A DNA stretch of 64,000 nucleotides, from positions 29,388,001-29,452,000 of the forward strand of contig OY740794.1 of assembly GCA_963514005.1 (NCBI GenBank), written 5' to 3'. Under the pieces are notes generated by a model, which worked only from the letters and a program-made list of their open reading frames with translations, did no database searches and had not been told where the DNA came from. Shown piece by piece: positions 4,102-61,278 of the stretch. Both the position numbers and the translations under genes were made by a program. Within the stretch, counting starts at the first letter, position 1, and every line of letters starts with the position of its first letter. Source of the DNA: Raja brachyura (taxonomy: Eukaryota).

Positions 4102-4925
4102 GTAGACACAAAAAACTGGAGTAAATCTGCGAAACAGGCAGCATCTCCAGAGAGACGTTTTGGGCCGAGAACTTTCTTCGGGCTGATGTCAGGGGAATGG
4201 GCGGTACAGAGATAAACTGTAGTCGCAGACAGTAAGACTGGTAGGTGAACTGGGAAGGGGAAGGGGATTGAGAGAATGGGAAAGCAAGGGCTACTTCAAG
4301 TTAGAGAAGTCAATGTTCATACCGCTGGGGTGTAAGCTAACCAAGCAAAATATGATGCGCTGTTGCTCCAATTTGCGCTCGGTCTCGCTCTGACAATGGA
4401 AGAGGCCCAGGACAGAAATGGCAGATTGGAAATGGGAGGGGGAGTTAAAGTGCTGAGCAACCGGGAGATCAGGTAGGTTTAGGTGGACTGAGCGGAGGTG
4501 TTCAGCGAAATGATTGCCGAGACTGGTCTAGCCGATATACAGGAGTTGACACCTGGAACAGTGGATATAGTAGATGAGGTTGGAGGAGGTGCAAATGAAC
4601 GTCTGCCTCACCTGAAAAGACTGTTGGGGTCCTTGCACGGAGTCGAGCTAAAGGGACAGGTGTTGCATCTCCTGTGGTTGCAGGGGAACGTACCTGGGGA
4701 TGGGGTGGTTTGGGTGGGGAGGGCCGAGTTGACCAGGGAGTTGCGGAGGGAACGGTCTCTGCAGAAAGCTGAAAGGGGTGGAGATGGGAAGATGTGGCCA
4801 GTAGTGGGATCCCGTTGGAGGTGGCAAAAGTGTCAGATGATTATTTGCTGTATGCGACGGTTGATGGGGTGGAAGGTGAGGACAAGGGGGACTCTCTCCT
4901 TGTTATGAAAGGGGGGGAGGGGGAG
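4102..4925 (-). mobile_element. Penelope-like element 3' portion with pLTR
   Basis: It is clearly similar to 28281-29313, covering the GIY-YIG C-terminal region and a pLTR with a decayed hammerhead motif at about 4154-4181. Confidence 0.8.
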
Positions 4926-6922
4926 CAATATTGATTGTATTCCTGTACAATTCATTTGTTTGTTTCTTATCTAGACTTATTTATATCTTATCTATAACAG
5001 GCCTCAAACCTCCAACCATAGGAAGACATAGACAGAATGCCCATGAATTGGAAAACTAACATAATCCTAGTCACCGGGGAACTCCCTCACCCATCAGTCC
5101 TGGGGTGTAGCTTCATTAGAAGAACTGAAATGGTTCTAATAAGCAATTTATACAATGTTGGCCGGGAATGGCCATGAAATGAATGAAAAGAATGGCCATT
5201 AAATGCTGACTTTGCTGGCAAATTATAAAAACTGAATACAATAAAGGCCCTTGACATTATAAATTCTCTCTGATCAAAACCTTATGGATCCACATATCAT
5301 TAAAAATATGGCATTAGTCATAATCATACAGCATGGAAACTGGCCCCTCAGCCCAACCTTCCATACCACATCTACATTCGGCCCATTTGTCTGTGTTTGA
5401 GCCGTATCCCTCTAAACATCCCTATCGATGTACCTGTCCAAATGTATTTTAAATGTTGTTATTACTCTGCTTTTAATGCTATTATTTTGGCTACATTAAA
5501 AAATAACTAACATTGCTTAGAAATGACCACAAAAATTCCTTTATGTCTGTAGGGAAATAGCCGTGTGAAACTGTTGCAATGCAAACTCAATCCAGGAGGT
5601 GGTGTTATGGAGAGAGCTTCTGAATTCACCCAACTCCAACTTGCTCAGTTCCCTGTGGCTACAGACCGGTTTACCAGTTGCAAGTGCTGAGAAAGTGGGC
5701 GACTCAGCAACAACCCTGATTGCAGTCTCCTACTCAATGGCAGGAGCTACAAAGTAGTAGCAGCACATCAGACAGTTGCTGCTACTTTCATTCTCTGAAG
5801 AGCTTGCCCAGAGTTAGCTTTCCTAAGTGCCTGGAACTGCCTTATTAGTGGTCAGGACATGCTTGTGGGTCTTGACTGAGAGAGCTAATATGGGATTAGT
5901 TTGGTACAAGTTCGCGTTAAGCATACTCCGTTTCTCATTCAATTTCCACGTCCCAAGGGTCCTTACCCGAAACATCATCTGTCCATTAGGCTGGTTCTCT
6001 GGATGCTTTCAAGAGAGAGTTAGATAGAGCTCTTAGGGATAGCGAAGTTAAGGGATATGGAGAGAAGGCAGGAACGGAGTACTAATTGTGGATGATCAGC
6101 CATGATCACATTGAATGACGGTGCTGGCTCAAAGGGCCGAATGGCCTACTCCTTTGTCAATTGTCATTGTCATTCCTTCCACAGATGCTGCCTGACACGC
6201 TGGGTTCCTCCAGCACTTTGTGTTTACTGTGCAGCAGGCTTCACCTGCAATCAAATCCAAATTAGAGGAATGAGAGGAAATCTCATCAGAAGACACAACA
6301 TTGTGACACGATTCTTCCCCAGGCTGGGAGGAATGAAGAGCCAGGCATCGCGGTCTCTGAATGTGGAGAAGAACATTTAGCACTGACGAGGAGAAATTAT
6401 TCAGATGGTGGCGAATTTGTGGAATTCTCTGTCACACAAGGTTAATTAGCCATATTGCCTCACAGAAAAGGTTGAAGTTAACGTTGATTTGTTGTTTATG
6501 GTTAATAGACCCACTCAAAAAGCAACATTGATGTCCGTGGTATTAAACAATCAGCGGTTCCACTGAGAAGAAACTGGCTCTAAGACCAAAAGCAGAGTCG
6601 TTGCAAACAATTTTTAGACTGGCAGTGTTTACTAGTATTCCTGAGGGATCAATGCCAGGACCACTGCTTTCATTGCTCTATATCGGTAAGTTAAATAAAG
6701 CCGTGCAGGATACAACTCCCACATTAGTGGACAGAACAAAGCAGGACAGTGATACTGGTAGAATGGGCAGCAGATGAGGTGTTTGAAAGGGTGTGTCTAT
6801 ACTCAAGGACCATGTGTACAGAAATCCTAGAATGAGCAAGAAATGCAGAAAGACCCATTTGTAAACTATTTGAAATCCTGGGAGTCATACTTTCCTTGAA
6901 CTCAAAACCTATCTGTTCTTCA

Positions 6923-7100
6923 ACCCTCAGTACTACCCCTCCCACAGTGCCGCGTTCCCTCACTGCCCCTCCCAGCGTGGCACCCCTTCAGTATTGTCCC
7001 TCCTGCGGTGCAGCGCTCCCACAGTACTGCCCTTCTCACACTGCGGCACTCCCTCAGTACTGCCCTTAGCATAGTGCGATGCTCACCCCTGAACTGCCAC
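6923..7100. repeat. Degenerate ~32-bp minisatellite
   Basis: About 5 diverged copies of a CCCTCAGTACTGCCCCTCCCACAGTGCGGCACT-like unit. Confidence 0.7.
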
Positions 7101-8229
7101 GGTTGGGGGGGCTGTCAACAGCTCCCGGCAGAGCTTGACCGACTGAGTCTCCAAACACCTTCAACCCGCACATCAGTAAACCTTTAAATTCAGATGTATT
7201 GATCCACAGATGCTCCTAGGGAGGCTGCACGATTGAGAGTATGAAGGGGAGGAGAGTGATCTCAGATTATAATAATTCTCTGCTTCATGTTAACATGCCT
7301 GTTTGTTGTGTAATCAGCACTGCCGTAAACTTGGGAAAGAACGATTTATGTTGCTGAGGGAAATAAATGTCATATTTATACTGGGAGAAAAAAAGTGCAA
7401 TGCTCCCTCAGTCCCTACCATCCCTCAGTCCCAGGTAGCCACAATGACGGCATGGTGACAACTTATTCTGGGTATGTTTTGGTCAAATGCTTGGAGATGA
7501 AGAGGAATTATAGAACTGAAGGCTGTGAACTGGGCAATTAGTACGTGAAGGACAAAGAGTTAGGTTCATGTGTCCAGTCAGTTAGGAAAACATGACATGA
7601 GAACATAGCCTGTTAAAATATTAAATAATCCCTAAAGTGTAGGAAAGTAAGCACAGTCACATCTGATCCAATGGCAATACTTGTATTTCTGGTTCCTTGC
7701 TTATTTTGAATATTAGTGATTAGACTTAAACCATCCACAGTCAAGCAAGTCATACAACAGACATCTGGATTTAAAAGGCAAAGGTGAGACTTTTATTCTT
7801 CAGAACTTCTAAGCTTGGGAGTGTTTTCTAAAGTTTACAAGGCCAAGGTTGAAATGACAGCTGGAAACAAGGCAGGAACATCCAGTCCTGCAGCACACCC
7901 TGCAGCTGAAAATGATTTTGTGAGGGTGCTGGGAGGGAGTGCAGTTGCCAAGGCAGCATCAAAAAAATGGGTGCAGCTCAAAGCCAACAAAGCAGAAAAT
8001 GAGAATGTGGGAATGATGATCTGCTCCCTCTCGATGGTGGGGAAGAAACTGGTTGTCAGAGGCCAGATGCTGTTGCTGTACAGTACTGGTGCAACTCATT
8101 CCCCACTTCTCTGTTGAAGCAGTCACACACTTGGCTTGCAGATCCAAAATGAATCTCATCTGCAGAGATGCTCTGTACAAACCTCCTGAGAAGGGGTGAG
8201 AAAAATGTAGCCAGCATGGCCCCTACCCT

Positions 8230-8284
8230 TCTCCTTCGCTCCTTAGATGCTGCTGCACCCGCTGAGTTTCTCCAGCTTTTTGTG
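8230..8284 (+). mobile_element. 55-bp Penelope pLTR fragment with 13-bp TSD
   Basis: TGGCCCCTACCCT is duplicated at 8217-8229 and 8285-8297 around the AGATGCTGCTGCACCCGCTGAGTTTCTCCAGC motif. Confidence 0.8.
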
Positions 8285-8370
8285 TGGCCCCTACCCTAAT
8301 GACCCAGGAGTTCTCTGGAGGCCTACAGGAAAAGGAGAATGTGGATCTCGAGTCAGACATTCAAACATTA

Positions 8371-8648
8371 GGGGCACCACAGCTGCACAGCGGTAGAGTT
8401 GCTGATTTACAGCTCTGGGTTCGAAACAGACTACGGGTGCTGCGTGTACGGAGTTTGTACGTTCTCCCTGTGACCGCATGGGTTTTCTCTGTTGCTTCAA
8501 TTTCCTCCCACGTGCGGGTTGTAGGTTAATTGGCTTCTGTTAAATTGTCCCTCGTGTGTAGGATAGAACTAGTGTACGGGTGATCGCTGGTCGGCGTGGA
8601 CTCGGTGGGCTGAAGAGTCTGTTTCTATGCTGTATCTCTAAACTAAAC
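8371..8648 (+). mobile_element. V-SINE (HE1-like elasmobranch SINE)
   Basis: It has a tRNA-like head (GCGGTAGAG...GGGTTCGAAAC), the V-domain GGAGTTTGTACGTTCTCCCTGTGACCGCATGGG, a CR1-like tail ending (CTAAA)n and a possible TSD AAACATT. Confidence 0.85.
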
Positions 8649-8649
8649 A

Positions 8650-9340
8650 TTCCATGAGCACTCTGTGATCTCATGCAATGCCTTGTCACCAGAAGTTTCA
8701 AACAAGCACCAGGACCTAAGTTGGCTGATGGTGAAAAAGGCTCCTCTTGTAAGGCCCTTCATACGCAGCGTCATCACACACACTGTCCTCGAGACGGTTG
8801 TGCAGGGGATGAGACCATTATACATCTCCTTTGGGATTGTTCTTTTGTCTAGAGAGTCTGGAAAGGGTAGCGGTGGTGTTTATGGAACTCTGTCCTGAGC
8901 AGGACTCTGCCCCATGATACGTCATAGGGTTGCATCCCGAGACAAACAATGACTGCTGCTAGACGATCAGCAAGGCGATTGAGTTGCTTCTGGTTTCTCT
9001 GAAACATGTTATCTTCTGATGCCAGGAGCTGACCGCAACCAAATGTGGCAGACTGGCACATTTATGCGCTCTGCTCAGGAATGCTCTGAAGCAGGGTACA
9101 GGCCAGTTAGGGCTTCATAGAGAGTGGCCACAGGGAGAGGACCTTCCACCTTTATACAATGAGCATTTGGAACCGTGTAAAACCCTCTTGGACTTGTTGG
9201 TCATGGAATGTTTGTGAAGAAAAAGTTGATGTGTTGCTGATATGAACAAATAGAAAAAGATGTCTTACACTTAAAACAGTGACCTGGACACACCATAAAT
9301 ACTTGCAATTTTTTTTAAAATAAAGAATATTTTCCAAAAA
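8650..9340 (+). mobile_element. Tx1/L1-clade LINE ORF2 3' fragment
   Basis: SPEVSNKHQDLSWLMVKK is followed, after a frameshift, by CPRDGCAGDETIIHLLWDC (CCHC zinc-binding motif). An A-rich end with AATAAA lies near 9320-9340. Confidence 0.7.
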
Positions 9341-9847: not shown

Positions 9848-10025
9848 GCAAAAATGATCACTTTGACTGAAGCAGTACTTAAATATAGCTGAGAATCAGC
9901 AACCAAAGGGAAAGAGTTTTGAATAAATAATGCCATTATTTATTCAAAACTCTTGCCCTTCGGTTACGGTTTTTCAGCTATATTTAACATTTAAGTGCCG
10001 CTTCAGTCAAAGTGATCATTTTTGC
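9848..10025. repeat. 178-bp near-perfect inverted repeat (palindrome)
   Basis: GCAAAAATGATCACTTTGACTGAAGC...GAGTTTTGAATAAATAATG-C-CATTATTTATTCAAAACTC...GCTTCAGTCAAAGTGATCATTTTTGC, centred at 9933. Confidence 0.92.
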
Positions 10026-14838: not shown

Positions 14839-15090
14839 TGTCCATGTGGCAGACTTGGCTGTGCTGGACTGCTGGAATGACACATCAAACCCATGTGGGC
14901 CTGGGTAATCTGTGTTTGACGGGATAGCTGGTGATGGTGAGAGAGCCTCGAAGGTGGAGCTGGGCTGAGCATATGGCGAGGGTGCTGTGATGCTGGGAGT
15001 GTGGTCGTTGTTGTAGGGGCTGGTGGAGGATGATCCGTTCGGTATCTGTTGCTCCATACTGTTGAGGAGCCCCAAGTTCGTGAACTGAGG
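14839..15090 (-). CDS. TP63: TP63 exon 4 (common exon, leading into the DNA-binding domain)
   Basis: The minus strand reads cccctgcag|CCT CAG TTC ... TGG ACA|gtaagt. The exon is 252 nt and encodes 84 aa, [26 protein letters not shown]...[28 protein letters not shown]. The N-terminal part is p63-type rather than p73-type. It lies within ORF 14743..15189. Confidence 0.98.
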
Positions 15091-17266: not shown

Positions 17267-20200
17267 ATGCCATTTTAAATATCACTGGGACTGCATACAT
17301 CTATTCATAGGTTTAGTATAGCAAATATATTACTAGTGAATACTATACTAGTATAGCAAAATGCCAATTGCACCATTATGTCTACTGTAGCCAAAGGAGA
17401 TCACTTTCAGTTCTTGATGCATAACTTCATAGGTTATGACTCTTCAAGTATTCATCAAGTACCATCTGATTATAATGTGGGTTTGAGCACCCACACTTTT
17501 TAGATGCAACATGAATTATTCGGACTCCCCTTTAATCCTTCCACTAATTCCCTCGAATCCATCCATTAATCTATCTATGCCCTCCAGACACTGACCTCAC
17601 CACTAAAGAAACAGGATCCCTCCTATCCAAGCCCCCATTACCAACACAGCTCAATTACATTTCCCCTTGGAATCTTCTGCTAGAGCGCAAACAACCTTAT
17701 CTCGGTCTCATTCCTCACACTGCGCTTCACCTGCCCTTACAGCGTCCTCGTCACACTGGCCTGCAACCCTTCCTAGAGCGGTTGTGGTGCTGAGCAAAAC
17801 ATTTGTGCTCAGTAAAGTGGTTGATTTCTGAGCCTGGAGCATAACCATGCAAACACTCACAGCATCACACACATTAGCTCAAGTACATCCCTGCACCAAT
17901 CTATCCTGTTTTTTAATTTTGTTTCTCAATTCTGATTCATCAATCTTCTGATACTTTACACAAATGACTAAGTCAGACAATGGTAAAACCTAGCCCCACC
18001 CCCTTACGCACCTTCCACCCGTCAGTTGAAAGATGCTGTCCAGCCGGTGGTGAATACTGAATGTCAAAGAAAAAGAACAGAATTTAAAATTATTTCAAAC
18101 AGTGCAACCATTATTTCTGACGGCGTGCATGTTGAAAATACAACCTCAGCATGGAAAAGAATCTAAAACACTGTTTAACTTGAAGTCTATGATTCTATCT
18201 GTTTAACATGAAGTCTATCTACTCTCACCATGTCCTGCCCACCCTTTATCACCTCTGTCCTTACTAACACTAGCTCGAGTTTTCCCACCAACATATCGAC
18301 TCTCATCCTCAGGAAGGCACGGCCATTTTCTCGGTATATAACCACCAATTAGAGCAGAGATTTCCAAGTTTGAAAATATAATAAAACTTTTATTCAAGTG
18401 AATGTGTCACTGGATGTGGGCAGTCAGGAGCTGCAGAAATGTTTTCCAACTGCGAACCGATAGCCTGACCTATTACACACGATATAATTACCATCCAGGA
18501 ACAAACCCCAAGAATGCCAGCATCAGATGTACTAACAGCAAGGTGGAAAACTACCAAAGTCTCAATAAATCGTAGAGGTGAGATTAGAACAACTGAGCCT
18601 GACATTAAAATTATATTTAAGGAAATGTAATGTCCGTGTGTTAATGAGGTTAATGCGCTTCAAAGGGAAATCATTCCACTAGCTACAGTCACATTGTACG
18701 TCGAGGAAGACAAATGTGATTGTTGGAGCCAAACTGTCTTAGCCAGGACACTGTTACAATGTTCCTGGGCTGCTTGGAGCAGCCTACTTGGCCCACATTT
18801 TCAGCAGTTTTAAAAATGACCTTTTCACCATCACAGAGTCAGAAGTGGGAGGTTCGCTAATAATTTCAGGGTTCAATTCTCTCTGAAACTCCTCAGGTAA
18901 TGAAACAATCCACCAGAAAGACCTGAACAGCAGACAAATGTTGATAATATGTTGAACCGATGGATATCTCTTGGGAATCTGTAAGGCCATGTGCACTATC
19001 AGAGAAACTATTTCCTTAAACAGAATTTTGCAGCAAGGTGGCAACTCGCCACCGCAATCAATTATTACATGCTTGATTTACAGATCACCATAAAAAAGAT
19101 GCAATGAAATATTTCAGAATAATATTTACACTAATACAAGATGACTTTCATTTAACTACCACCTTTCACAAACTAGGAATCTTGTAAATGCTTTACATTG
19201 AAGTACTTTTGACATTTAGTTAATGATTTAAAAGCGGTGAACACAGCAACTAATTTGCTAACAGATAAATAATGTCTTGTGGTGTTGGTCAAGGGAAATT
19301 GTCCAGGACACCGAGAAAAACTCCAGTATTTCAAAACATTCTTCTGAGATTATTCACATCTAGCAAGGTGAGCAGACAGAGCCTCTGTTTAATATCTTTT
19401 CTGAAAAATGACCAGACAGTGCTGCACCTCTTTAACATTGTCCACGTGAATGGTTTTGCCCACGACCCTGGTGTTCATCACTCTCACTTCACATTTTATA
19501 TTTATGTGAATCATTCCATGACTCTTGCCCAGTTTTAAACAAACAACCTTTCTATTATTTTGTCCATTCCAAATTTTTCATGTGGTCCAAATTTTGCAAT
19601 TTAACGTGATTTAGGTATCGTATCAATGGTTAAAATTCTGAGTTTTGATTAGTGAAGTGTAAGATAGCACCAAGGCACAAAAGACTGTAGATACGGGACT
19701 CTTGAGCAAAACGAAAATGCTGGAGGAACTCAGCAGGTCAGGCAGCATCTGTGGAAGGAAACGGCAGAGGATGTCTCATGTCGGGACCCTTCTTTAGACT
19801 GATGGTTTTTGGGGTGAAAGCTAAAAAATTGAGGTGGGGGCGGGGAAAGGCCCCAAATAGGACTAGCTTCGATCAGCCATTTTGCTCAGCATGGACGAAT
19901 TGAGTTGAAGGGCTGCATAACTCTGAATCTCATAAGAATGCTCAGTAAGCAGACAGGGTAACAAATCTTCAAATGCTACAACACTTTGGAAATTAATCAA
20001 TTATTTGTACCCCTAACAAAACAATGTCTGAGGGTGGTTCATGTTAACATCTTCAAAAATCAGATTACTGCAGCTACTGGAAATCAAAAAACAGAATGGT
20101 AGAAACATTGGCAGCACAGACAGCATGAATGGAGAGAGAAACAGAGGTAACATTTCAGGTCAGTCACCTTTCATCAGGTGGAAGATGAAGACCATCAACC

Positions 20201-27547: not shown

Positions 27548-28280
27548 ACGAAAATAGACTGGGTAAATGCACAGAATCTTTTACGTAGGGTAGGGGAATC
27601 AACAAGGAATAAATGACATAAGGTTTAAGATGAGAGGGGAAAGATTTAATATTTAACAGGCAACTGTGGGAAACAGTTTTATACTGTGGGTAGTGGGCAT
27701 ATGGAAAGTACTTGCAGATTAAGTATTTGAAGCAGGTACAATAACAACATTTAAGAGCTATTTGGGCAGGGATGGATAGGTGCATGGATAGGAATGGTTT
27801 AGAGGGATACGGACCAAATGCAGACAAATAGAACTGGCGTAGATGGGGGCATCTTGGACAGCATGGACGTAGGCCCAGGACCTGTTGCCGTGCAGTATGA
27901 CTCTACATCTCTGTTGTGCGACATTCATAAATTATTTCAAGCTGCAACACCCCTGAAAATTAAAATGGGAAAAAAACCTGCAGATTATGAAAATCTTATA
28001 TTAAGCAGACAATGCTGGAAACACTCAGTAGGCCAGGAGAGAGAAACAATCAATGTTTCAGATTAAAGACCTTCATCAGAACTCAACTTTTCATCTGTCT
28101 CAATGAGATGGTCAATGTTCACTTGCTGAGAGAGCCACAACCAAGCATACTCAGCCTGGCTAGACCCACAGTTGGGCATTTGCTACACAGGAGGTAACAA
28201 CAGCAGGAAAATAGGACGGTCGTTCCCACGTTCCCCAACTCCCTCACTCCATCAGTTCGAGACCAGGCATATTCTCACTG

Positions 28281-29313
28281 TAGATAGACACAGAAAGCTG
28301 GAGTAACTCAGCGGGACAGGCAGCATCTCTGGAGAGAAGGAATGGGTGATGTTTCGGGTCNNNNNNNNNNNNNNNNNNNNNNNNNNNNNNNNNNNNNNNN
28401 NNNNNNNNNNNNNNNNNNNNNNNNNNNNNNNNNNNNNNNNNNNNNNNNNNNNNNNNNNNNNNNNNNNNNNNNNNNNNNNNNNNNNNNNNNNNNNNNNNNN
28501 NNNNNNNNNNNNNNNNNNNNNNNNNNNNNNNNNNNNNNNNNNNNNNNNNNNNNNNNNNNNNNNNNNNNNNNNNNNNNNNNNNNNNNNNNNNNNNNNNNNN
28601 NNNNNAAGTGAGCAAAATCAATATTCATACCATTGAGCCATAAGCTGCCCAAGCAAAATATGAGATGCTGTTCCTCCAATTTGCGTTTAGCCTCACTGTG
28701 ACAATGGAGGAGACCGAGGACAGAAAGGTCTGTGTAGGAATGGGAAGGAGAATTAAAGTATCCAGCAAACAGGAAATCAGGTTGGTTCACGTGGGCTTAG
28801 CGAAGGTGTTCCGCAAAACGATCGCCCAGTCTGCGTTTGGTCTCGCCGATGTATAGGAGTCCACATCTTGAACAACGGATGCAGCAGATGAGGTTGGGGG
28901 AGGTGCAAGTGAACCTCTGCCTAACCTGAAAGGACTGTCAGGGTCCCTGAACAGAGTCGAGGGAGGAGGGCTAGCGACAGGTGTTGCATCTTCTGCGGTT
29001 GCAGGGGAACGTACCTGGGGAAGGGGTAGTTTGGGTGGGAAGGGATGAGTTAACCAGGGAGTTGCGGAGGGAACGGTCTCTGCGGAAGGCAGAATGGGGT
29101 GGAGATGGGGAAATGTGACTAGTGGTGGGACCCCGTTGGAGGTGGCGGATATTTTGGAGGATTAGGTGTTTATCCCTGACCAGTCCGAAGAAGGGTCTCG
29201 ACCAGAAACGTCACCCATTCCTTCTCTCCAGACTTGCCGCCTATCCCGCTGAGTTACTCCAGCTTTTTGTGTCTATCTTCGGTTTAAACCAGCATCTGCA
29301 GTTCCTTCGTACA
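28281..29313 (-). mobile_element. Penelope-like element with inverted terminal pLTR and 13-bp TSD
   Basis: CATATTCTCACTG is duplicated at 28268-28280 and 29314-29326. The minus-strand peptide FNSPSHSYTDLSVLGLLHCHSEAKRKLEEQHLIFCLGSLWLNGMNIDF is a PLE GIY-YIG C-terminus. pLTRs occur in opposite orientation at the two ends. Confidence 0.88.
28361..28605. other. Assembly gap (245 N)
   Basis: A run of n characters inside the Penelope element. Confidence 1.
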
Positions 29314-41099: not shown

Positions 41100-41141
41100 C
41101 TCACTGTACTGTGACTGGGCTGCATTCTCTAGGTACAGCAT
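41100..41141 (-). CDS. TP63: TP63 exon 3' coding part (DeltaNp63 first exon)
   Basis: The minus strand reads gcaaacATG CTG TAC CTA GAG AAT GCA GCC CAG TCA CAG TAC AGT GAG|gtaagt = MLYLENAAQSQYSE, matching the DeltaNp63 N-terminus (human MLYLENNAQTQFSE). It has a consensus donor in phase 0 and is too short for the ORF track. Confidence 0.96.
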
Positions 41142-45652: not shown

Positions 45653-45745
45653 CTGAAAAAGGGTCTCGACCCGAAACGTTGCCTATTTCCTTCGCTCCAT
45701 AAATACTGCCTCACCCGCTGAGGTTTTCCAGCATTTTTGTCTACC
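45653..45745 (+). mobile_element. 93-bp hammerhead-motif mini-element with 13-bp TSD
   Basis: TTAGAATAATATA is duplicated at 45640-45652 and 45746-45758. The insert begins CTGAAAAAGGGTCTCGACCCGAAACGTT. Confidence 0.85.
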
Positions 45746-48700
45746 TTAGAATAATATATGATTAGACTGCACTGGACGGGAAACTATACGAAGATGCCCA
45801 AGCATGGCAGGAGTCCAAGTCTGCAGTCGATTGTGTGCGACCTTCATTCATAGTCTTTCATTCATTGTCCAGTGGTAAAAGGCTAATATTTCTCACCTAG
45901 CATCGTCAAAGTCCCTTGTACCTGCACTAGGTAATGCGATGACTGTGGACATCATGACCAGCAAGTGTGGAAAGTGGAACCACAGCATGTTGCATTTCAA
46001 TTCACTGTCATTAGTTCATTCTCCTTTTCATGTGTAGTTAAATGAAGGTTGCAATCAGGAGGTGCCTACATTTTACAATATGTAGCAGGTTGAGGATTAG
46101 GGCATTCTGACTGGTGTCCCACTCTCAGCTCCCACAATATCAGGCTCAATAAAGATGTTTTTCCACATCACATTAATGTACTAGAGCAATCATCCCCGAC
46201 TGACAGTGCTGGGGTTAGGTTAGGAGTTTTAGGCAGTACTTTTCACATGGAGTTTTATTCAGAAGGATGGATTTGAATCCACCTCTTAGATGTCAAAATC
46301 CTCAACCAAATTCTGCCAACTCTGACTCGGGATCCAACTGATGGCGAGGCACATTGCCAAAGCATGAAACATCAAGAGGGGTGCTCAAAACCTTAGTCCA
46401 AAACAGAGGCTAAAAGGAGGGTCTAACTGAGGTGACAGAGATAGTTGATGAAGGGTTCTGTGGAAAGGGTAAATCCTTGAGCAGGAAAACAAGAACACTT
46501 TTGCAACGTTGTACCTTTTACAATCGCAGCTTGTCCTCGAGCATTAAACCAAATGAAATGCAAGGCATATGCGATAACTGCCTTCATTAACTGAGGTATA
46601 GAATATAAGAGCAGTGATGTAATGATACAACAATATAAAACATTGGTTACATCACTGCTGGACAATTGTGGTCACCACACCTTTAGAAGGAAGTAAATGC
46701 TAAAGAACACAAATTGCTCATTTTTATGTAAACCAGCATCTGGTTCCTTGTTTCTACAAAGGATTAAAAGCAGATTCATCAGGACGTTGCTTTCAGTTAG
46801 GAGGAGAGGCTGGATAGGCTGATGTTCCTTGCAGCAGAGAGAGCATTTGTGAAATGAATGGCAGAGGTTGGCTGGACAGTGGTAAGCATGTTTAAATACA
46901 CAAAACAATGGTTTAAGATAAGGGGCAAAAAATATTTGAAGAAATTTGAAGAATTCTTTCACACAGATGGTGGTTGAATTCCAGGGAGGATTCAGAAAGT
47001 CTCACAACCCAAGAAGCATTAAGATGAGGTTTGGTATATTGTATCGAGCAAGTGCTGGAAAATGCTACTCGATGACTGGCTAGGACCCAGCCAGCCAGAG
47101 GTCAGTTTCTTTGCTGTACGACTCCACGTTTTGGGTTTTTTTTTTGCACCAACCTGAACAGCAAAGGAACAATTACATCTGAACATCCAACTGGAAGAAA
47201 CACTGAATTAGGATTAGGGTGGTATTAACATTAATGTAAACACTATTGTAATGATAAAGATCCAGATGGTATCCATGCCAGGATAAAGTGAGTAGGTAGA
47301 GGAATGATAGATACTCTGAGTATGAGTCTCTCATAATTCTGGGACCACTCCTTTTGGTTGGAAAATTGTATATATTACCCCTATTTAAGCGCATTGTTAG
47401 TCTATTGCTACTCTATAATTAAGGCTGGAATGACTGAACACCATATCAAACTGAACAGTTATCTGTGGGAGCCTGCACAGATCTGTAAAGAATGGATTAC
47501 ATCTATTAAATCTGAAATTAAGCAGGTTTTTTTTATATACTCCGTTTTTTGGGACCTGGACATTATTGGCAAACCCAGTGTTTATTAAACACAAAAACTT
47601 GCAGCTGATGAAAATCCGTAATAAAAACGGAAAATGCTGGAGATGTTCAGCAGGTTAGGGAGCATCTGTGGGAAGAGAAACAGTTAATGTTTCAGGCCTG
47701 AGACCCTTTGTCAGACTGGGAAAGAGAGAACATTATTTTTTACAATATTGAACCACTGCTGTGTCTGTGATGAATGTGTGACCAGAGTGATGTTGGGAGG
47801 GAATTCCAGGATTCCAGATGATCTAGACATTTGAAGCACATGGGACCTAGTGCAAGCAGGCTAATTGGATCCAAAATGTGTTTATTGTTAGGCTGCAGTG
47901 GGTGGTGGATGGGTGTATATCTGACTGGAAATTTGTGACCGGTGGTGTACCACGTGGACCAGTGCCAACGCCTTTGGAGTGAAGGCTAAGGGTTAACCTG
48001 ATGGGTGTAAAACATGATGAAAGACATAGAAAGGCCTCATGGTCAAAAGCTGTCTGCCGTGATATGAACAGCAAAGACAAGAGGTCATAGATTTAAAGGT
48101 GAGAGGAAGGAGTTTTAATGGAGATTTGAAGGGTATGTTTTTATTTAAAAGCAGAGTGGTTAATATCTGGAACGTGTTACCAGAGGATGTGGTGGAATCA
48201 GATACAATTGCTGCATTTATGAAGCATTTAGACTGACACTTAAATAGGCATGGAGTAGAGGAATTGGACCAAACGCAGGCAAATGTGATTTGTATAGACG
48301 GACAAAGGTGTTAGCATGGATGTGGTGGGCTGAAGGGCCCATTTTCTGTGCTATGTGGCTCTACAATACCATTAACAATCAGTGATCTAATTCACATTAC
48401 AACCAAGGAATACCAATGTGATTGCAAACTGTTGGTGCAAAACCATGTCATCATTGGTTGCTGGACAAAGTAATGACAACCACAAGTGGTGCAGGTCCTA
48501 ACCATGTTTGCACCGCAAACCTTCAAATAAACTGAGGGACCTGTCTCTGTGCACTTATGTTAAATAGTGATTGTATCTAAAAGATAGTTAGGTTTGCGAT
48601 AGGAAGAAATCAGACCAGAGTTTCTGAGATGAATAGCAGCATGACCAAGTGTAATCTGGTAACTTGCAGCCACCAAAACATGTTCAAAAACAAACCGTTT

Positions 48701-49662
48701 ACGGTAAAGCTAGATTCACTCTTGTCCTTCAGGAAGAGATCACTGCCTGCAAATATTTACTTTTCTCTTGGGCGAGGTTTGGGGGAGGGGGGGTGGGGGT
48801 GAGGCAATTCAGCATTGAGCGCAGTGGGGGAGAAGGACAATTAACTGGGTTTTTTTACTCCAAAGTCAGACACTCGGTTCATAGCGTGGTATTGGTTTAA
48901 TATTGTCATGTGTATTGGAATAAATTGAAATGCTTTGCTTGATGGCTAACCAGTGAAATGATACTATACACAAGTAAAATGAAACCATGCACAAGTAGTG
49001 CAAGAAGAAATAACCAGAGTGCAGAATATAGTGCTACAGGATTACAGCCATAGAGAACGTGCAGATTAAAAAAGGAAAATGTGGGTTGGGAGATTGGGTA
49101 TACACCATTAGTTTATGGAAGGACCAGTCAGTAGTCTGATAACAGAGAGGAAGTGCCTATTCCACGGTCTGGTGGTGCATGATTTCAAGCTTTTGTATCT
49201 TTTATTCAAAGGGAGAGGAGGGAAGAGGGAATGATCAGGGTGTAAATGGTCCTCGATTTTATTGGCTGCTTTCCCGAGGCAGTGCAAAGTGTAGATGGTC
49301 AATGGAGGTGTGGAGAGTGAGGGTGGGAGGCTGAATTGTGCAATGGACTGCATAGCATTCACAGCTCTCTGCAATTGCTTGCTGTCTCACGCAGAACTGT
49401 GGCCAATCCAAGCTGTGATACATTCCAATAGGATACTTTCCACAGAGCATGTGTAGAAATCAGCACGAATTACTGGAGCCTCCTTTCCTTTGTGAGATGC
49501 CGCAAGCAGCACCGGGAGGGGGAGTGACAGGATGTGGTTACAAGGACAGAAGAGTTACTGAGAGACTGACCTGCACAAAAATACACCTCAGCATTGTTCA
49601 GTACATGTAATTTTATGAACATCAGCGGGTGCAGCAGCATCTAAGGAGTGAAGGAGATAGGC

Positions 49663-49690
49663 GACGTTTCGGGTCGAGGCCCTTCTTCAG
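49663..49690 (-). ncRNA. Minimal type I hammerhead ribozyme motif (second tandem copy)
   Basis: Minus-strand RNA is CUGAAGA-A-GGG(CCUCGA)CCC-GAAA-CG-UC. Confidence 0.6.
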
Positions 49691-49968
49691 ACTCCACAGG
49701 CAACACCGAGGAAGCAGATGTGGCTATGGTATCGAGTCTGGGTGAGGATGTGGTCGTAGAGTTGGAGGGAAGGGGGTATCTCAGAGGGGGAGCAGTTAGA
49801 GAGGAGGTTGTGAAACTGTCTTCGTAGGGAGGAGGAGAACTTCTTCAAAGTAGGCATACCTTGAGGAGATATCGCAGTGGAGTAGACAAAGTGTTAAAGA
49901 AGGAACTGCAGATGCTGGAGAATCGAGGGTACACAAAAGGCAGCATCTAAGAAGTGAAGGAGATAGGC

Positions 49969-49996
49969 GACGTTTCGGGTCGAGACCCTTCTTCAG
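49969..49996 (-). ncRNA. Minimal type I hammerhead ribozyme motif (PLE-associated)
   Basis: Minus-strand RNA is CUGAAGA-A-GGGU(CUCG)ACCC-GAAA-CG-UC: both conserved core boxes, stem II, a vestigial stem III and a GUC cleavage triplet. Activity is not demonstrated. Confidence 0.65.
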
Positions 49997-51980
49997 ACTG
50001 AATTTTGGAATTAAATTTTTGGAATTTTTACAAAACTATTTAACACAAAATTGAACCCCAATACAGAACTGATTATCTTTGGATCAGTGGAAGAGGGAAG
50101 TAAACTAACTATATTCCAAGAAGCTTTTCTTAATTACGGTCTAATAACAGCAAAAAAACTTATACTCAAATTTTGGAAAAACGCAATCACGCCAACATCC
50201 AAAATGTGGATTTCAAATATGTCTGAAACGCTTCATCTTGAAGAAATGAGATTTCTCCTACTAGGCAAAGTAGACCAATTCTCAAAGACTTGGTCTCCTT
50301 TTATCAACTTTTTGCAAGCATATGGTGCAACATAACATAACCTCAGAAATTAAATGGTTTGGAACCGGGTGACGGATGGGCAAAAATACGAAATGGGTAG
50401 ATCTCTCCTAATCTCTCTTTTCTTTACTTTCTCCTTCTATTTCAATCTTTTCAGCTTCTCTTCTATGTCCTTTATTTCTTTTGCGATCTGTTTCTACTCG
50501 CTTGTCTATCGATTCCAACACTCTTTATTTCTTTTTTCTTTCACTGTTCTTTTATTATTAAATCAAAAGTATGAAGTTGTACAAGAATGGAAATATGTAT
50601 GTATGTATTAGGTACTCAAGTACCACACTATTGTACTTCTAACAAAAATAAACAAAAAAAAACTGGAGAAACTCAGCGGGTGGAGCAGCATCTAAGGAGC
50701 GAAGGAGATAGGTGACGTTTCGAGTCAAGTCCCTTCTTCAGTCTGAAGAAGGGTCTCAACCCGAAACGTTGCCTATCTCCTTCACTCCTTAGATGCTGCT
50801 GCACCCGCTGAGTTTCTCCAGCCTTTTGTGTACCCTCGATTCTCCAGCTTCTGCAGTTCCTTCTTTAAGTACTTTAGGATGCTTTGAGACAAAGTACGAA
50901 TACAAGTATGTCATTTCATTAATCACGCTATCATCTGATTTACTTAGAATTGATTTGAAGGTTTGATGCTGCGCATCATATGAACACATCACCTATCCAT
51001 CTCATGCTGAAGGGTCTTCAGTTCTTGACAGAGTTGGGTTATTATCATTTTAAATTCCAAGAGGCTGTAGTGTTGTTTACAATCTGCCATTTCTACTCTC
51101 CCGACACACATTGTCACAGTTAGCAGTTATAGGAGACCTTTCACAATTGTTGTTTAGGTGTATGGAGGCTATTGAAACACCTCCATCATCCCATTCAGTT
51201 CATCACTTAAAAGCAGGAACCAATGGAAGAGTACTAGGCTACCCTTTTCAAACAAGTGTTCAAGCACCAGGGAGCTTTGTCTTCCTTCAGCGTGCTGGCA
51301 AATGAAATTGGAATTCATAGGCAAAAGGGTCAGCATGGCATGGTGGGCCGAAGGAGCTGCATCTGTACTGTATGACTCAATGGCTGGCTCTGTAAATTGA
51401 TCATCTCTTACCAATCATATCTCACTCAGTGCTCAATGTGTTTGAGCCCCCAAGCTATGATCGCAGAGCAAAGTTCAAGTCTGTCACTTTTGGGATTATC
51501 TACGAAAGTCCTGACATTTCAGGTCTGGAACTTCATATTGTGCATTGGAAGTTGACCGTGCAATTTTCATAACCACAGGTTGCATCAATTTTCTGACGTT
51601 TTCTCAGTCTTTCTCACTTCCAACAAACTTCCCTCTGAGAAAATGGCAACTACACCATAACCAAGTTTACCAAAAGTTCAGCATATGAAGAGCAGGCAGC
51701 AGGTGTGGTCGTGTATGCTCAGTTGCTGAGCTCCAAGCTCCAAGTCTATGCTTTCCCTGAAGAACCTACTTAACATTCAACATTTACAGGAGAATACCAA
51801 TCACCAGAGAATATGGCTGAGGCAGGTACAATGACAACATTTAAGACATTTGGACAGGTACATGAACAGGAAAGGTTTAGAGGTGGAAAGACTAGTTTAG
51901 ATAGAACACCTTAGTCAGTATGGACAAGTTAGGCAGAAAGGCCTGTTTCAGTGCTGTATGACAACACTGTCGTGTTTAGT

Positions 51981-52272
51981 GGAAACAGACCTTTCGGCCC
52001 ACCAAGTCCACACCAACCAGTGATCCACGCACATTAACGCTACCCTATACACACTAGGAACATTTTTTTTTTAAATGTATATACCAAGCCAATTAACCTA
52101 CAAACCTATACGTCTTTGAAGTGTGGGAGGAAAGCGAAGAACTGAGAGAAGCCCCACGCAGGTCACGGGGAGAACGTACAAACTCCGTACAGACAGCACC
52201 CGTAGTCAGGAATGAACCCGGGTCTCTGGCGCTGTAAGGCAGCAACTCTACAACTGCACCACTGCGCCGCCC
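51981..52272 (-). mobile_element. V-SINE (HE1-like), near full length
   Basis: The minus strand has a head GGGCGGCGCAGTGGTGCAGTTGTAGAG...CCGGGTTCATTCC, the V-domain GGAGTTTGTACGTTCTCCCCGTGACCTGCGTGGG and a CR1-like tail. Confidence 0.88.
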
Positions 52273-52870
52273 TTCGATCAAAGTTCACCGTGTCGTCGGG
52301 ATAAACATGGACTGTTTCCCACATCTTGAGAACCACCACTTCGTAATGTCAGACTGCCATGAAACTCCCTATCACTTTCAATGTACCAGCACATCCTTGG
52401 ACTGATTGAGAAAGATTTCTGAACATCAAGACCTCAGACCGGACATAAAAGCCATGGTCTACCAGGCAGCAGTGATTCCTGTCCTCCTACATGCTTCGGA
52501 GACCTGCACTGCATACAGCACTAGGTCATGTGAATGGAGACTACCACCAATGCTACTTGCAAAATTCTCCACATAGATGTATATCCCACCAATGCCAGTG
52601 AGCTGACCCAGGACAGCATCCCTGGTACAGAGGCCATCGTTATATTCAGTCAGCTAAGTTGGAAGATCATGGCGTTCACTTCCCCGGCACCCAACTCCAA
52701 AAACAGACTTTCTATTCAGCACAATCGCCGAGATTCCCAGCTTGACAGAGGAAACTATTTAAGGGTGTGCCCTGGAGAAATGCAAAAATTCTCCTTGGAT
52801 CATGACTTGCTCAAAGTAGAGCAGACAGGGCGACAGTGGGAATGTCAAGGCCACATACATGTAGCCCACA

Positions 52871-53698
52871 TTGAATTGAATTACCTTTATTGTCATTCAG
52901 ACCTTTCGGTCTGAACGAAATTTCGTGCCTGCAGTCATACATATATTAAAAGTAACAAAACCACACAATAAACACAAATTTAACATCCACCACAGTGAGT
53001 TCACCAAACACCTCCTCACTGTGGTGGAAGTCAAAAGTCTTAGAGTCTCTGTCTTCTTCCCTCCTTGTTCTCCCTCTGCGCTGAGGAGATCCAGGCCTCC
53101 GATGTTGTCGTCCACCAGGCCCGCGTCCGAGCCTCCGAAACCGGGCCGCCGCCACCGCCGTCGCCGGAAAGGCGGAACACCGCCACAGGGCCCGCCGCTG
53201 GAACGCTGGAGCACCGCAGCTCCAAAGCCAGGTCGCCGCTGGAGCACTGCAGCCCCGAAAGCCAGGCCGCCGCTGGAGCACCGCAGCCCCGAAAGCCAGG
53301 TCGCCGCTGGAGCACCGCAGCCCCGAAAGCCAGGTCGCCGCTGGAGCACCGCAGCCCCGAAAGCCAGGCCGCCGGAACGCCACTGGAGCACCGCAGCTCC
53401 GAAAGCCTGGTCGCCGCTGAAGCTCCGAAGCCATGCTGCCGCTGCTGGAAGCTGGAAGGCCGCCAGCTGCGCCATTAGTGCCTCAGCACAGACGGAGACG
53501 GGGACGGGGCACACGGCAAGAAAAGTCGCATCCCCCCGAAGGGAGAGACTAACACCCTGTTTCTCCCCCCCCCACACACACACACACAGCCTAATAAACC
53601 AAAATAATCGCTAAAAACAGACACGAAGACAAAAATAAAATAAAAAACAGACGGACTGCAAGTGAGCCGCATCTGCCAAGCAGCGCCGCCACTTCCGA
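52871..53698 (-). mobile_element. Young CpG-rich non-autonomous retroelement with an internal minisatellite
   Basis: The minus strand starts CGGAAGTGGCGGCG and ends with a stem-loop, AATAAA and an (ATTCA)n tail. It has no credible ORF. Confidence 0.7.
53193..53420. repeat. 34-bp GC-rich minisatellite, about 6.5 copies
   Basis: The unit CGCCGCTGGAGCACCGCAGCCCCGAAAGCCAGGT starts at 53234, 53268, 53302 and 53336, with variant copies on both sides. Confidence 0.95.
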
Positions 53699-56600
53699 TG
53701 ATCCTACATGTGTGACAGGAAGAGCGATCCACCTTATTCAACCCATCTGTCCATCCCGCCAGCATCACCTGCCTGCTTACCTTCGGCAGAGCAGTCCCCA
53801 CACTGGCCTCATCATCCACCTCAGAAAGCCCAGACCAAAAAATCTCCAGAAGTAAGCCTGCTATTATTGATCTCACCGACAGCGTTTGGTGAAATCAGCT
53901 AACAACAAAAACAGGTCAGCAAACAGTACTGTGGTAACTCAGTGAGTCAGGCTGCAACTCTGGCGAAAAAGGATGGGCGACATTTCGGGTTGGGACCCTT
54001 CTTCAGACTGTACTTTGAGACTATCTATGGTATAAACCAGCATCTGGGTTCTTTGTTTCTACATTTTGTCAGCAGGGAGAAATTCATTTTGGTTTCCCAA
54101 AATAAAATGGAAAGCATGAATTTATGAATCACTGCAACAGCTATTGAGTATTGAAAGTAAAGTTTCATACAAAGAGAATTTCACTTCCTTTCAGTAAGCA
54201 AAACATTTCATTGGGATTAATCAAGGGAGTTGCTGCATTGCAACTTAACTGGTGACACGTTCAAAAAAGATTTTTTTTGAAAAACACTTTTGGAATTATC
54301 TTCAGATCTGAACCAGGGGATCAGCCATTTGCTGTAAGTGCATTATTATATTTCTCCTCATTCCTTTTTGTTGCAGTTGCCACTGTTTATGCTGAATTCT
54401 TTCGTGTTATTTGCACTCCTCACCCCTACAAACTGGGATATTTAAGAATATCTGACAAATGCCACAGACACAGTTCAGCTCCCAGATAGGCAGGTGTTGT
54501 CAGAATTCTGTGCCTCAAGCTAGTAAAAAAGGCATTTCAGATTAAACAAATGCTACAAAAGCAATCACCTCCCACATCACTAAACCCTGCCGATGCAAGC
54601 TGTATTCAAATGAGGAGTCCTGTGCTGGCACACCCACATAGACAGACTCTGCTGTTCTCTTGCACACTAAGATCTTTCAAACTTTACTCAGAACTTAAGT
54701 GGTAATTTTGCAACTTTAGAATCCTGAGCACCTGATGATTACAGAAATTAGACCACATTTTCTGTAAAAAAAATATTCCAAAAGCTAGGAACAAACAACA
54801 CTTTGCTGAAATGGAAGAGTATGTTTTTCTAAGCTACGGTACATCTTTTTTCTCTAACAAGTATCATGAGCAAATTATCATTAGAGTCACAGAGACAGAG
54901 AATGGAAGCAGACCCTTCAGTCCAACTCATCCATACCGAATAAGTGCCTACCTGAGCTGGTCCTATTTGTCTCATTTTGTCCTTTTAAACTATCAGTTCC
55001 ATATTATTCTCAAAGAATTTCCCCAATTTGATCTGAGCAAATTCAGTTTTGGCATTTTGACAAAACTCAGAAGGGATCAGTTTTCTCAGCTGAATTTAAT
55101 TCTACCATCAGCTGTGGTTGTTTTAACATGAAATAATTATTGTCTCCCATTATAAATATCGTTTCGCGTTATAAATACGGCTTCACTGTGCAAAGGTGCT
55201 GAGGCAGCTCGAAAATGCAGAGCTTTTCACTCCCCGTTTTCCCTTTGTTCAAACTAAGTACAACATTTTTTCAGACTGTTCCCCTTTTATGTTACATTAC
55301 TGTGCCTTCATTCTGAAATCCCCATTTCTCTGTGAATCAGAGTTCAGAAGACGAAGGCCTGGGGAATGCGAGCCCTGAGGGCATGTTTCCACCTACATAT
55401 TGCTGCAGACTGCTGACACTGCATATCTCCCTCACCCATCCCATTAAGCAATCCATAGCAACACAGTTTTGGATCTGTATTATGAATTGTCTTCTTCAAT
55501 GAATAGCCTACTTTTGTCAAAGCCTCTACCTAGTATGCAACAATAAGCAGCAGTTAAGCACTGGAATACTTAATGCACAAAGTCATTCTATACTTTTGAT
55601 AATTGAACTTTACAATACAGCTTAACAAACTTAGTTATGACAAATACAATGTCTAGACTTTGATACTGAATAATATGTTCTTAAACAGACTTTGGTCCTT
55701 CAATGGCAAATAGATTAACTGGGGAGAACTGGGACATTCATCTACCACGTGTGCATAATTTATAATTGGAGGCAAATCTACATTATTTAAGGACCTTTTT
55801 CTATTGTTTTATCCTTCAGTTAGGCTCCGGGGCAAGAGGTTAGGTATTATGTAAAAACAAAGAACTGTGGATGTTGGTTAATACACAAAAGCACACAAAG
55901 TGCCGGAGTAACACAGCAGGTTGGGCAGCATCTCTAGAGAACATGGATAGGTGACGTTTCAGGTCAAAAGGTTCTGACCCAAAACATCACCTACCCAGGT
56001 TAGGCGTTGCTAGCTATCTACAAATACTGAATTAAAGATGTGAAAAGTTCAGTTGCCACAGCTGGTGAGGACATATTTTCACATTAATAGGCTAACATCT
56101 CAGTCATGTCAGCACAGAGGAGAATCACAAAGGACATTTACCAAAGGAAGAAACTGGAATAATTAGTGTGAACAGTGGTCACCCACAAAAATGTTCTTCA
56201 CTAAAGCTCAGCAGTGGATGGGCTATACAAACACTGAACACCCACCCACAAGAGGGCGTGAGGCTTCGAGCTGAAGAAAGCCACGTTATATTTGGCAGAT
56301 ACACTTTATTACAGTCCTTTTGCCTGTTAAGACAAGTTTTAAAAAACTCTAGTCCAACACAATTTTTCATTGTGAATTTTTTTATTGTAATAATTAGATT
56401 TATTACAATCTTAATTCCATTGAAGGGCTGGTGTTTGCTCAATGCATGGCCATTGCCAAAAGGCCAATCTCAAGTATCTGAAACACAGTTGAGATTCACA
56501 AACTAACCCTCTTACATATGCAGCCAAATCGTTTCTAACCCCAGGGCAACTTAAAAAGTTAATTAAAAATCCACAAGGACCAGACACACGAGTGTATCAT

Positions 56601-61145: not shown

Positions 61146-61278
61146 CCACATTGGATTCATCGGCTCCACATCTTGCATGCGCACCATATCCATGCTGATC
61201 TCGATCCTATTCCCGGGCACCCCCTCGTGTGGCTCATCGCTGAACGATAGGTCAATTGGCTGAATGTTTAAAACCGGC
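61146..61278 (-). CDS. TP63: TP63 exon 3 (TA-isoform-specific, transactivation region)
   Basis: The minus strand reads ttatgcag|G CCG GTT ... ATG TGG|gtgagt. The exon is 133 nt and encodes PVLNIQPIDLSFSDEPHEGVPGNRIEISMDMVRMQDVEPMNPMW, collinear with recalled human TAp63 [44 protein letters not shown]. It ends in phase 0, compatible with exon 4. Confidence 0.93.

What the first reader, a model, noticed from the sequence alone, without database searches (positions are those of the whole stretch)
49622..54006. Cluster of core-intact hammerhead ribozyme motifs on the TP63 sense strand, in the TA-only part of the intron
Seen: minus-strand CUGAAGA...GAAA-YG-UC motifs at 49663-49690, 49969-49996, 50714-50741 and 53979-54006. 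The first two are 306 nt apart in tandem. Most copies I checked elsewhere have broken cores (e.g. CCGAAGA at about 29185, CTGAAAA at 45653, GTAA at about 17207). Known: Penelope-like elements carry minimal type I hammerheads that lack a stable stem III and cleave as dimers. Inference: tandem same-strand copies could dimerise in cis and cut nascent TAp63 pre-mRNA upstream of the DeltaN promoter, attenuating TA but not DeltaN transcripts. Caveats: stem I is only about 2 bp, there is an extra A before stem II, and the intact cores may only reflect a young insertion.
Basis: partly seen in the sequence, partly recalled or inferred. Interest (0 to 1): 0.7.

Follow-up and report, generated by a model that had tools for sequence, protein, structure and literature searches.

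The report
Penelope transposon hammerhead stubs in TP63
The four motifs are real copies of a tiny self-cutting RNA fold carried by a very abundant jumping gene (about 129,000 such motifs in this genome), three of them inside one recent insertion, and they most likely sit inert in the TP63 intron rather than regulating it.

Summary
The four cores are present, on the TP63 sense strand, between TA exon 3 and the DeltaN start. They are the minimal hammerhead in the pseudo-LTR of a Neptune-like Penelope retroelement. The 306-nt tandem is one truncated pLTR-body-pLTR insertion. Three cores lie in a 1.27-kb block that a contig of a related organism (about 4% diverged) skips. Only 49969 is fully family-typical; helix I is at most 2 bp. 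In 1.6 Mb inside 14 other genes, intact cores are not depleted on the sense strand (57 sense, 36 antisense), which argues against efficient cutting of pre-mRNA. Published relatives cleave weakly, or only with the element's protein. Verdict: ordinary member of a known kind. TAp63 attenuation is unsupported but untested (about 5%). The scan noted the same motif class before in other shark and skate genomes.

The parts
49598..50866 (.). Young compound insertion block (Penelope pLTR copies plus a LINE 3' end) holding three of the four named cores and the fifth core
   Evidence: Run X10 (organism D) record 10 aligns 49276-49597 and 50867-51500 with only 40 letters between; one contig, one run
49607..49696 (-). 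Second pLTR stub of the tandem; hammerhead core 49663-49690, stem II with a C.A mismatch, 2-bp helix I
   Evidence: 97% identical to the full-length unit's first 73 nt
49697..50001 (-). First pLTR (core 49969-49996, the family-typical 28-mer) plus tail (with an internal deletion) plus about 200 nt of element body including the ORF start; this is the 306-nt spacer
   Evidence: matches unit positions 1-329; body part 98-99% identical at the 39 other loci scored, 1785 candidates
50008..50657 (+). 3' end of an unrelated poly(A)-tailed LINE (ORF end, 3' UTR, A tail); L1-like by recall, no Pfam hit
   Evidence: 98-99% copies at 39 other loci, 2240 candidates; 5 of 5 copies inspected have no hammerhead nearby; Pfam blank
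50657..50746 (-). pLTR stub with core 50714-50741; 3-bp stem II, no first helix I pair; one arm of the hairpin
50738..50866 (+).
   Evidence: I5, 88% complementary; -145 kcal/mol for 195 nt
53906..54012 (-). Older solo pLTR stub with core 53979-54006 (UG in the palindrome), shared with organisms C, D and E
   Evidence: X12 record 9 spans 53698-54700 in one contig; X7, X10, X13 cover it in overlapping contigs
61146..61278 (-). TP63 TA-type exon 3 (133 nt, AG...GT); gene name recalled from the translated sequence
41100..41141 (-). Coding part of the DeltaN first exon (MLYLEN...), followed by a GT donor
14839..15090 (-). TP63 exon 4, shared by TA and DeltaN
   Evidence: PF00870 exons follow on the same strand just outside the window

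Best explanation
The motifs are the minimal hammerhead carried in the end repeat of a very abundant Penelope-like retroelement, left in TP63 intron 3 by what are likely two insertion episodes, and they are likely inert in the host pre-mRNA. SHOWN: a full-length 3,965-bp unit elsewhere in the genome has this motif about 160 nt upstream of an ORF with RT, a CX4CX2C linker and GIY-YIG; the 306-nt spacer is that unit's own 5' part; the motif has about 129,000 copies. INFERRED: reverse transcription starts in the tail about 70-130 nt downstream of the core, runs to the RNA 5' end four bases upstream of the core, and then either integrates (solo stub), jumps to another element RNA (tandem pair) or folds back (inverted pair). 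INFERRED: the ribozyme serves the element, folding as a dimer with help from the element's protein; genomic stubs then decay neutrally.
For: Parent element and domains. The same pLTR-body-pLTR form has a second core 336-1296 nt away at 9 of 19 other spacer-bearing loci; 7 other loci have a second core within 60 nt of the same body point; 581 exact tail-body junctions exist. Block 49598-50866 is skipped by an organism D contig. Core 50714 is paired with probability near 1 in the hairpin. In 1.6 Mb inside 14 other genes: all copies 347 sense and 345 antisense, intact cores 57 and 36, so no sense depletion. Core divergence 8.3% sense and 9.7% antisense against tail 9.9% and 9.5%. Literature: single min-HHR inactive and dimers weak (PMC4209133); anole PLE hammerhead cleaves only with element protein and no RNA-seq reads end at its site (PMC11167929); partial tandems, inverted copies and tails are the standard PLE footprint (PMC8557442).
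Against: No cleavage or RNA data were obtained. The strand test covers mostly solo copies: none of the 93 intact cores in the gene sample had a same-strand partner closer than 862 nt, so close sense-strand tandems like 49663/49969 were not tested and could be active and selected against. Tandem retrozymes are reported as depleted from Xenopus introns (10.64898/2026.07.22.740005). A fast engineered hammerhead in an intron does knock down a fish gene (PMC11856399). The small sense excess (57:36, p=0.04) is only partly explained. Absence in organism D rests on one contig. Pfam RT and GIY-YIG hits are below their curated cut-offs.
Confidence: 0.88

Rival explanations
1. The 49969/49663 pair folds as a cis double hammerhead, alone or helped by the element's protein, and cuts a fraction of nascent TAp63 transcripts as an accidental, lineage-specific side effect of a young insertion.
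For: Both cores keep all 11 invariant positions and a 4-bp ACGU/ACGU stem III can be drawn between them. They lie on the sense strand in the TA-only intron. Close tandems are rare in my gene sample, 0 of 93 cores. Protein-assisted cleavage is shown for a related element, and intronic cleavage can lower mRNA.
Against: Helix I is 2 bp at both sites and the second stem II is damaged. The constrained dimer fold lies 28.9 kcal/mol above the ensemble, similar to three other element copies (26-34; uncalibrated, no positive control). Published min-HHR dimers cleave weakly. No in vivo ends were found for the anole element.
Confidence: 0.07
2. The cluster is a selected, exapted attenuator that sets the TA to DeltaN ratio.
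For: Position and strand fit. The 53979 copy is retained in organisms C, D and E.
Against: Three cores are absent from the organism D contig. The retained copy is solo and has UG in the palindrome. Retention at about 4% flank divergence is the neutral expectation. Motif density is the genome average. The other p53-family gene and other long genes carry sense cores too.
Confidence: 0.02
3. Any effect on TP63 comes from the 85-bp hairpin and other inverted copies acting as double-stranded RNA (editing or splicing effects), not from catalysis.
For: Very stable hairpin on the sense transcript; many inverted pairs in the window.
Against: Head-to-head pairs are common elsewhere (several among the first 100 listed matches). 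The hairpin is over 9 kb from either flanking exon. No RNA data.
Confidence: 0.03

Closest known systems
Minimal type I hammerheads (min-HHR) in pLTRs of metazoan Penelope-like elements (Cervera and De la Pena 2014, PMC4209133)
   Same: Conserved core, unpaired base between A9 and G10.1, G10.1-C11.1 pair, palindromic 15.2-16.2 with no loop III, location in the pLTR, mostly solo copies, opposite-strand pairs nearby.
   Different: Helix I is 2 bp (4-5 bp in the Schistosoma families; 2 bp in the D. virilis variant), helix II is 4 bp, and copy number (about 129,000 by a loose pattern) exceeds the 4,000-9,000 reported for coelacanth and Xenopus, though descriptors differ.
Neptune/Nematis-type EN+ Penelope-like elements (PMC8557442)
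   Same: ORF with RT and C-terminal GIY-YIG, CX2-5CxxC linker, partial tandem and inverted insertions with a tail.
   Different: No tree was built, so Neptune against Nematis is not resolved. Here truncated copies keep the 5' part of the ORF between two pLTRs.
Poseidon element PAc of Anolis (Frangieh et al. 2024, PMC11167929)
   Same: Hammerhead at the pLTR-ORF junction; most copies end at two tail points downstream of it, as expected from internal RT initiation.
   Different: In PAc the ORF starts inside the hammerhead; here the ATG is about 160 nt downstream of the core. Different clade.
Non-LTR retrozymes (bioRxiv 10.64898/2026.07.22.740005)
   Same: Tandem units of about 300 nt bounded by type I hammerheads and related to PLE pLTRs.
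   Different: Here spacer length varies from locus to locus (336-1296 nt) and is the element's own ORF start, so these are truncated insertions, not a fixed monomer family.
Intronic host-gene ribozymes (CPEB3 HDV-like, PMC10274809; engineered T3H48, PMC11856399)
   Same: Ribozyme motif on the sense strand of an intron.
   Different: Those are full monomer-competent ribozymes with measured cleavage; this motif cannot form stem III alone and is one of about 129,000 repeat copies.

Membership tests
min-HHR of metazoan PLEs | Core C3 U4 G5 A6 N7 G8 A9 ... G12 A13 A14 A15.1 ... U16.1 H17 | tested here: met
   All four named cores and the fifth
min-HHR of metazoan PLEs | Stem II closed by G10.1-C11.1 with an unpaired base after A9 | tested here: met
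   4 bp at 49969 and 53979, 3 bp at 49663 and 50714
min-HHR of metazoan PLEs | Palindromic 15.2-16.2 allowing stem III only as a dimer | tested here: met
   ACGU in three cores, AUGU at 53979; 4-bp stem III drawable between 49969 and 49663
min-HHR of metazoan PLEs | Helix I flanking the cleavage site (4-5 bp in most families, 2 bp in D. virilis) | tested here: inconclusive
   2 bp (U-G or U-A, then G-C) across subfamilies; first pair broken at 50714
min-HHR of metazoan PLEs | Located in the pLTR of a PLE | tested here: met
   L035:5718-5745, between the stop of one unit's ORF and the start of the next
min-HHR of metazoan PLEs | Self-cleavage as a dimer or with element protein | not testable with these tools
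   Needs an in vitro assay
Rfam hammerhead families | Covariance-model match | tested here: not met
   No hammerhead among the 7 matches at E<=10; expected for a motif without stem III and with a 2-bp stem I
EN+ PLE, Neptune/Nematis type | RT plus C-terminal GIY-YIG in one ORF | tested here: met
   Both in the 1033-aa frame, E 5e-4 and 1.4e-3, below curated cut-offs; N-terminal frame continuous for 550 aa in L028
EN+ PLE, Neptune/Nematis type | CX2-5CxxC linker upstream of GIY-YIG | tested here: met
   C-X4-C-X2-C read in the translation; definition
EN+ PLE, Neptune/Nematis type | Partial tandem and inverted insertions with tail | tested here: met
EN+ PLE, Neptune/Nematis type | RT phylogeny places it in Neptune | not tested
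   No reference set was at hand
Non-LTR retrozyme | Fixed-length non-coding monomer repeated in tandem | tested here: not met
   Spacer varies from 336 to 1296 nt and is the ORF start
Exapted intronic regulatory ribozyme | Conserved at the orthologous site across relatives | tested here: not met
   Block with three cores skipped in an organism D contig; the fourth is retained but solo
Exapted intronic regulatory ribozyme | Cleavage of host pre-mRNA in vivo | not testable with these tools
   Only contigs could be laid; they cannot show RNA ends

The most novel reading that the evidence does not exclude
When the Penelope element is active, its protein chaperones the intronic 49969/49663 pair into a double hammerhead that cuts nascent TAp63 RNA, so a transposon dampens the TP63 isoform that guards oocyte genome integrity (that role is recalled from mammals) while sparing DeltaNp63; hundreds of similar tandems could do the same in other genes.
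Probability: 0.05. Interest if true: 0.75.

Novelty: new member of a known kind. Interest (0 to 1): 0.14.

Why it matters
As found, it matters little: it is one of about 129,000 copies of a described retroelement motif. The useful by-products are a baseline (sense-strand minimal hammerheads are tolerated at about one per 28 kb inside long genes) and a young, abundant element family in which the open question of what PLE hammerheads do could be tested. If protein-assisted cutting of TAp63 RNA were real, it would be a direct way for a retroelement to weaken a host germline checkpoint.

Tried and rejected
Rfam scan: no hammerhead. Sense-strand depletion as a sign of activity: not seen. Sense-strand excess as a sign of host selection: rejected as weak. 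Dimer folding energy has no positive control, so it is not used as proof; 3 of the 4 comparison loci were computed. A spliced form that would lengthen helix I: no fitting donor found in the unit and no second common upstream sequence among the 54 of 162 contexts printed. Split ORF in the C18 array as a family feature: rejected, 6 of 6 other copies spanning that point carry five more bases. TA exons 1-2 were not located by motif search in about 90 kb upstream; 'TA-only' rests on exon 3. No RNA holder listed. Target-site duplications of the block were not resolved. Searches for prior reports: Penelope + hammerhead + Chondrichthyes gave 3 papers, Penelope + skate + transposable elements + Leucoraja gave 1, TAp63 + ribozyme + intron gave 2 unrelated; none of the listings describes this locus. 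No supplements were opened; those of PMC4209133 or the bioRxiv preprint (closed) may list this family.
Full report
Observation. The four motifs are in the sequence at the stated places on the minus strand. A 133-nt TA-type exon 3 lies at 61146-61278, a DeltaN first exon starts MLYLEN at 41141, and exon 4 lies at 14839-15090, all on the minus strand. PF00870 exons follow just outside the window. The name TP63 is recalled from the translations. The organism is probably a cartilaginous fish; that is recalled and comes from no call. So the motifs are sense and upstream of the DeltaN start. In a fold of the sense RNA the third core's conserved bases are paired with probability near 1. Only 49969-49996 is family-typical throughout. 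49663 has a mismatch at the top of stem II, 50714 lacks the first helix I pair, and 53979 has UG in the palindrome. Rfam finds no hammerhead.

Is it more than chance? The motif is part of a repeat of about 130 nt with more than 30 profile hits in the window, on both strands. The exact 28-mer occurs 50,608 times in the genome. That predicts about 3 per 64 kb; 4 are seen, P=0.36. Four on one strand in about 20 kb would be unusual if independent (P=0.0014), but they are not independent (below); two events give P=0.08.

What it is. The 306-nt spacer is itself repeated: the 39 other loci scored are 98-99% identical, out of 1785 candidates. Four hits recur every 3,965 bases on C18. [quoted passage not shown] The linker defines Neptune and Nematis PLEs (PMC8557442, passages); no tree was built. 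Window 49697-50000 matches unit positions 1-329 and 49622-49693 matches positions 2-73, so the tandem is pLTR, start of the body, pLTR. The same form is common. Nine of 19 other spacer-bearing loci have a second same-strand core 336-1296 nt away, 7 other loci have one within 60 nt of the same body point, and 581 exact tail-body junctions exist. Between the tandem and the hairpin lies the poly(A)-tailed 3' end of an unrelated LINE.

Age. A contig of organism D, about 4% diverged in the flanks, aligns to 49276-49597 and 50867-51500 with 40 letters between, so it lacks the 1.27-kb block that holds three named cores and the fifth (run X10, record 10). This is one contig in one run; I did not lay the second D sample or organism E on this stretch. 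Organism B bridges the left junction, and C reaches about 25 bases into both ends, short of the tool's 31-base rule. The fourth copy is older and present in C, D and E. Whether the LINE piece came in the same event or later is unresolved.

Does the host select on such cores? I sampled 160 stretches of 10 kb between same-strand CUB or spectrin exon hits in 14 gene spans, 6 on plus and 8 on minus. All copies: 347 sense, 345 antisense. There is no sense depletion. A sense core occurs about every 28 kb inside long genes, which is hard to square with efficient cutting. The small excess is weak (9 of 14 spans, p=0.42; 83 of 180 against 67 of 174 by alignment, p=0.16) and partly due to strand-asymmetric CpG decay that the YG pattern admits in one direction only. 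Core positions diverge about as much as the tail (8-10%). Non-CpG core positions differ less than their neighbours on both strands (6-7% against 10-12%), which fits conservation among the active master elements rather than by the host. Against my reading: no same-strand pair closer than 862 nt was in the sample, so close tandems were not tested.

Mechanism. Shown: anatomy, parentage, copy number, youth. Inferred: most copies begin four bases upstream of the core and end at one of two tail points. This fits reverse transcription starting inside the RNA, as shown for the anole element (PMC11167929, parts 1-2 of 4 read), followed by integration, a jump to another element RNA, or fold-back. The ribozyme would serve the element. 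A 4-bp stem III can be drawn between the two tandem cores, but helix I is 2 bp at each site and the fold lies 28.9 kcal/mol above the ensemble, like three other element copies; this number is uncalibrated. Published min-HHRs were inactive as monomers and weak as dimers (PMC4209133, parts 1-2 of 4 read). The anole hammerhead cut only with the element's protein, and no RNA-seq reads ended at its site. On the other side, an engineered fast hammerhead in an intron lowers mRNA up to 20-fold in zebrafish (PMC11856399, passages), and tandem retrozymes are reported as depleted from Xenopus introns (10.64898/2026.07.22.740005, passages). Accidental cutting is therefore not excluded.

Comparison and verdict. 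It works like, and meets the sequence tests for, the min-HHR of metazoan PLE pLTRs; helix I is at the short end and activity is untested. It is not a fixed-monomer retrozyme and fails the conservation test for an exapted intronic ribozyme. Inverted pLTR plus tail is also described in PMC3846280 (passages). PMC10274809 was seen only as a listing and abstract start. The scan held no note near this place but eight notes from other shark and skate genomes reach the same class of reading; they are AI notes and were read after my own reading was fixed. New member of a known kind, interest 0.14. Confidence 0.88 that the stubs are inert passengers, 0.07 for accidental cleavage, 0.02 for a selected TA attenuator, 0.03 for a double-stranded RNA effect.

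Noticed in passing
L035:5640-5724 and many genomic copies: Most short copies start at (C)AGT four bases before the core. In full-length context this follows a long pyrimidine run and CTGAC or CTAAC a few bases upstream, so it reads as either an initiator (CCAGTCT fits YYANWYY, recalled) or a 3' splice site; the D. virilis element has an intron ending at helix I. No fitting donor was found.
   Followed up: partly
L055-L214 (gene sample): Slight excess of intact cores on the sense strand (57:36; strict pattern 35:19) and strand-asymmetric CpG decay (TG:CA 98:83 sense, 90:117 antisense, p=0.04).
   Followed up: partly
L035/L036 (G000:C18:46.36-46.38 Mb): Tandem array of near-identical 3,965-bp Penelope units whose ORF is split into two frames; 6 of 6 other copies spanning that point carry five more bases.
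   Followed up: yes
G000:C1:162939585-162940238: Three exact tail-body junctions at a 311-nt period: a retrozyme-like trimer of the same element.
   Followed up: no
window 4299-4925 and 28645-29308: Older-family Penelope endonuclease-region fragments on the minus strand, about 76% identical to the young unit; the second abuts an inverted pLTR.
   Followed up: partly
window 53204-53432: GC-rich 34-nt tandem repeat, 6.5 copies, inside what looks like another repeat element.
   Followed up: no
window 9887-9979: Near-perfect 92-nt hairpin with a weak, sub-threshold MIR1523 match on both strands; probably a small inverted-repeat element.
   Followed up: no
window 20067-20177, 27976-28081, 47620-47719: Much older, diverged pLTR-like stubs, two with a CUGAUGA start, showing earlier families of the same motif.
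   Followed up: no
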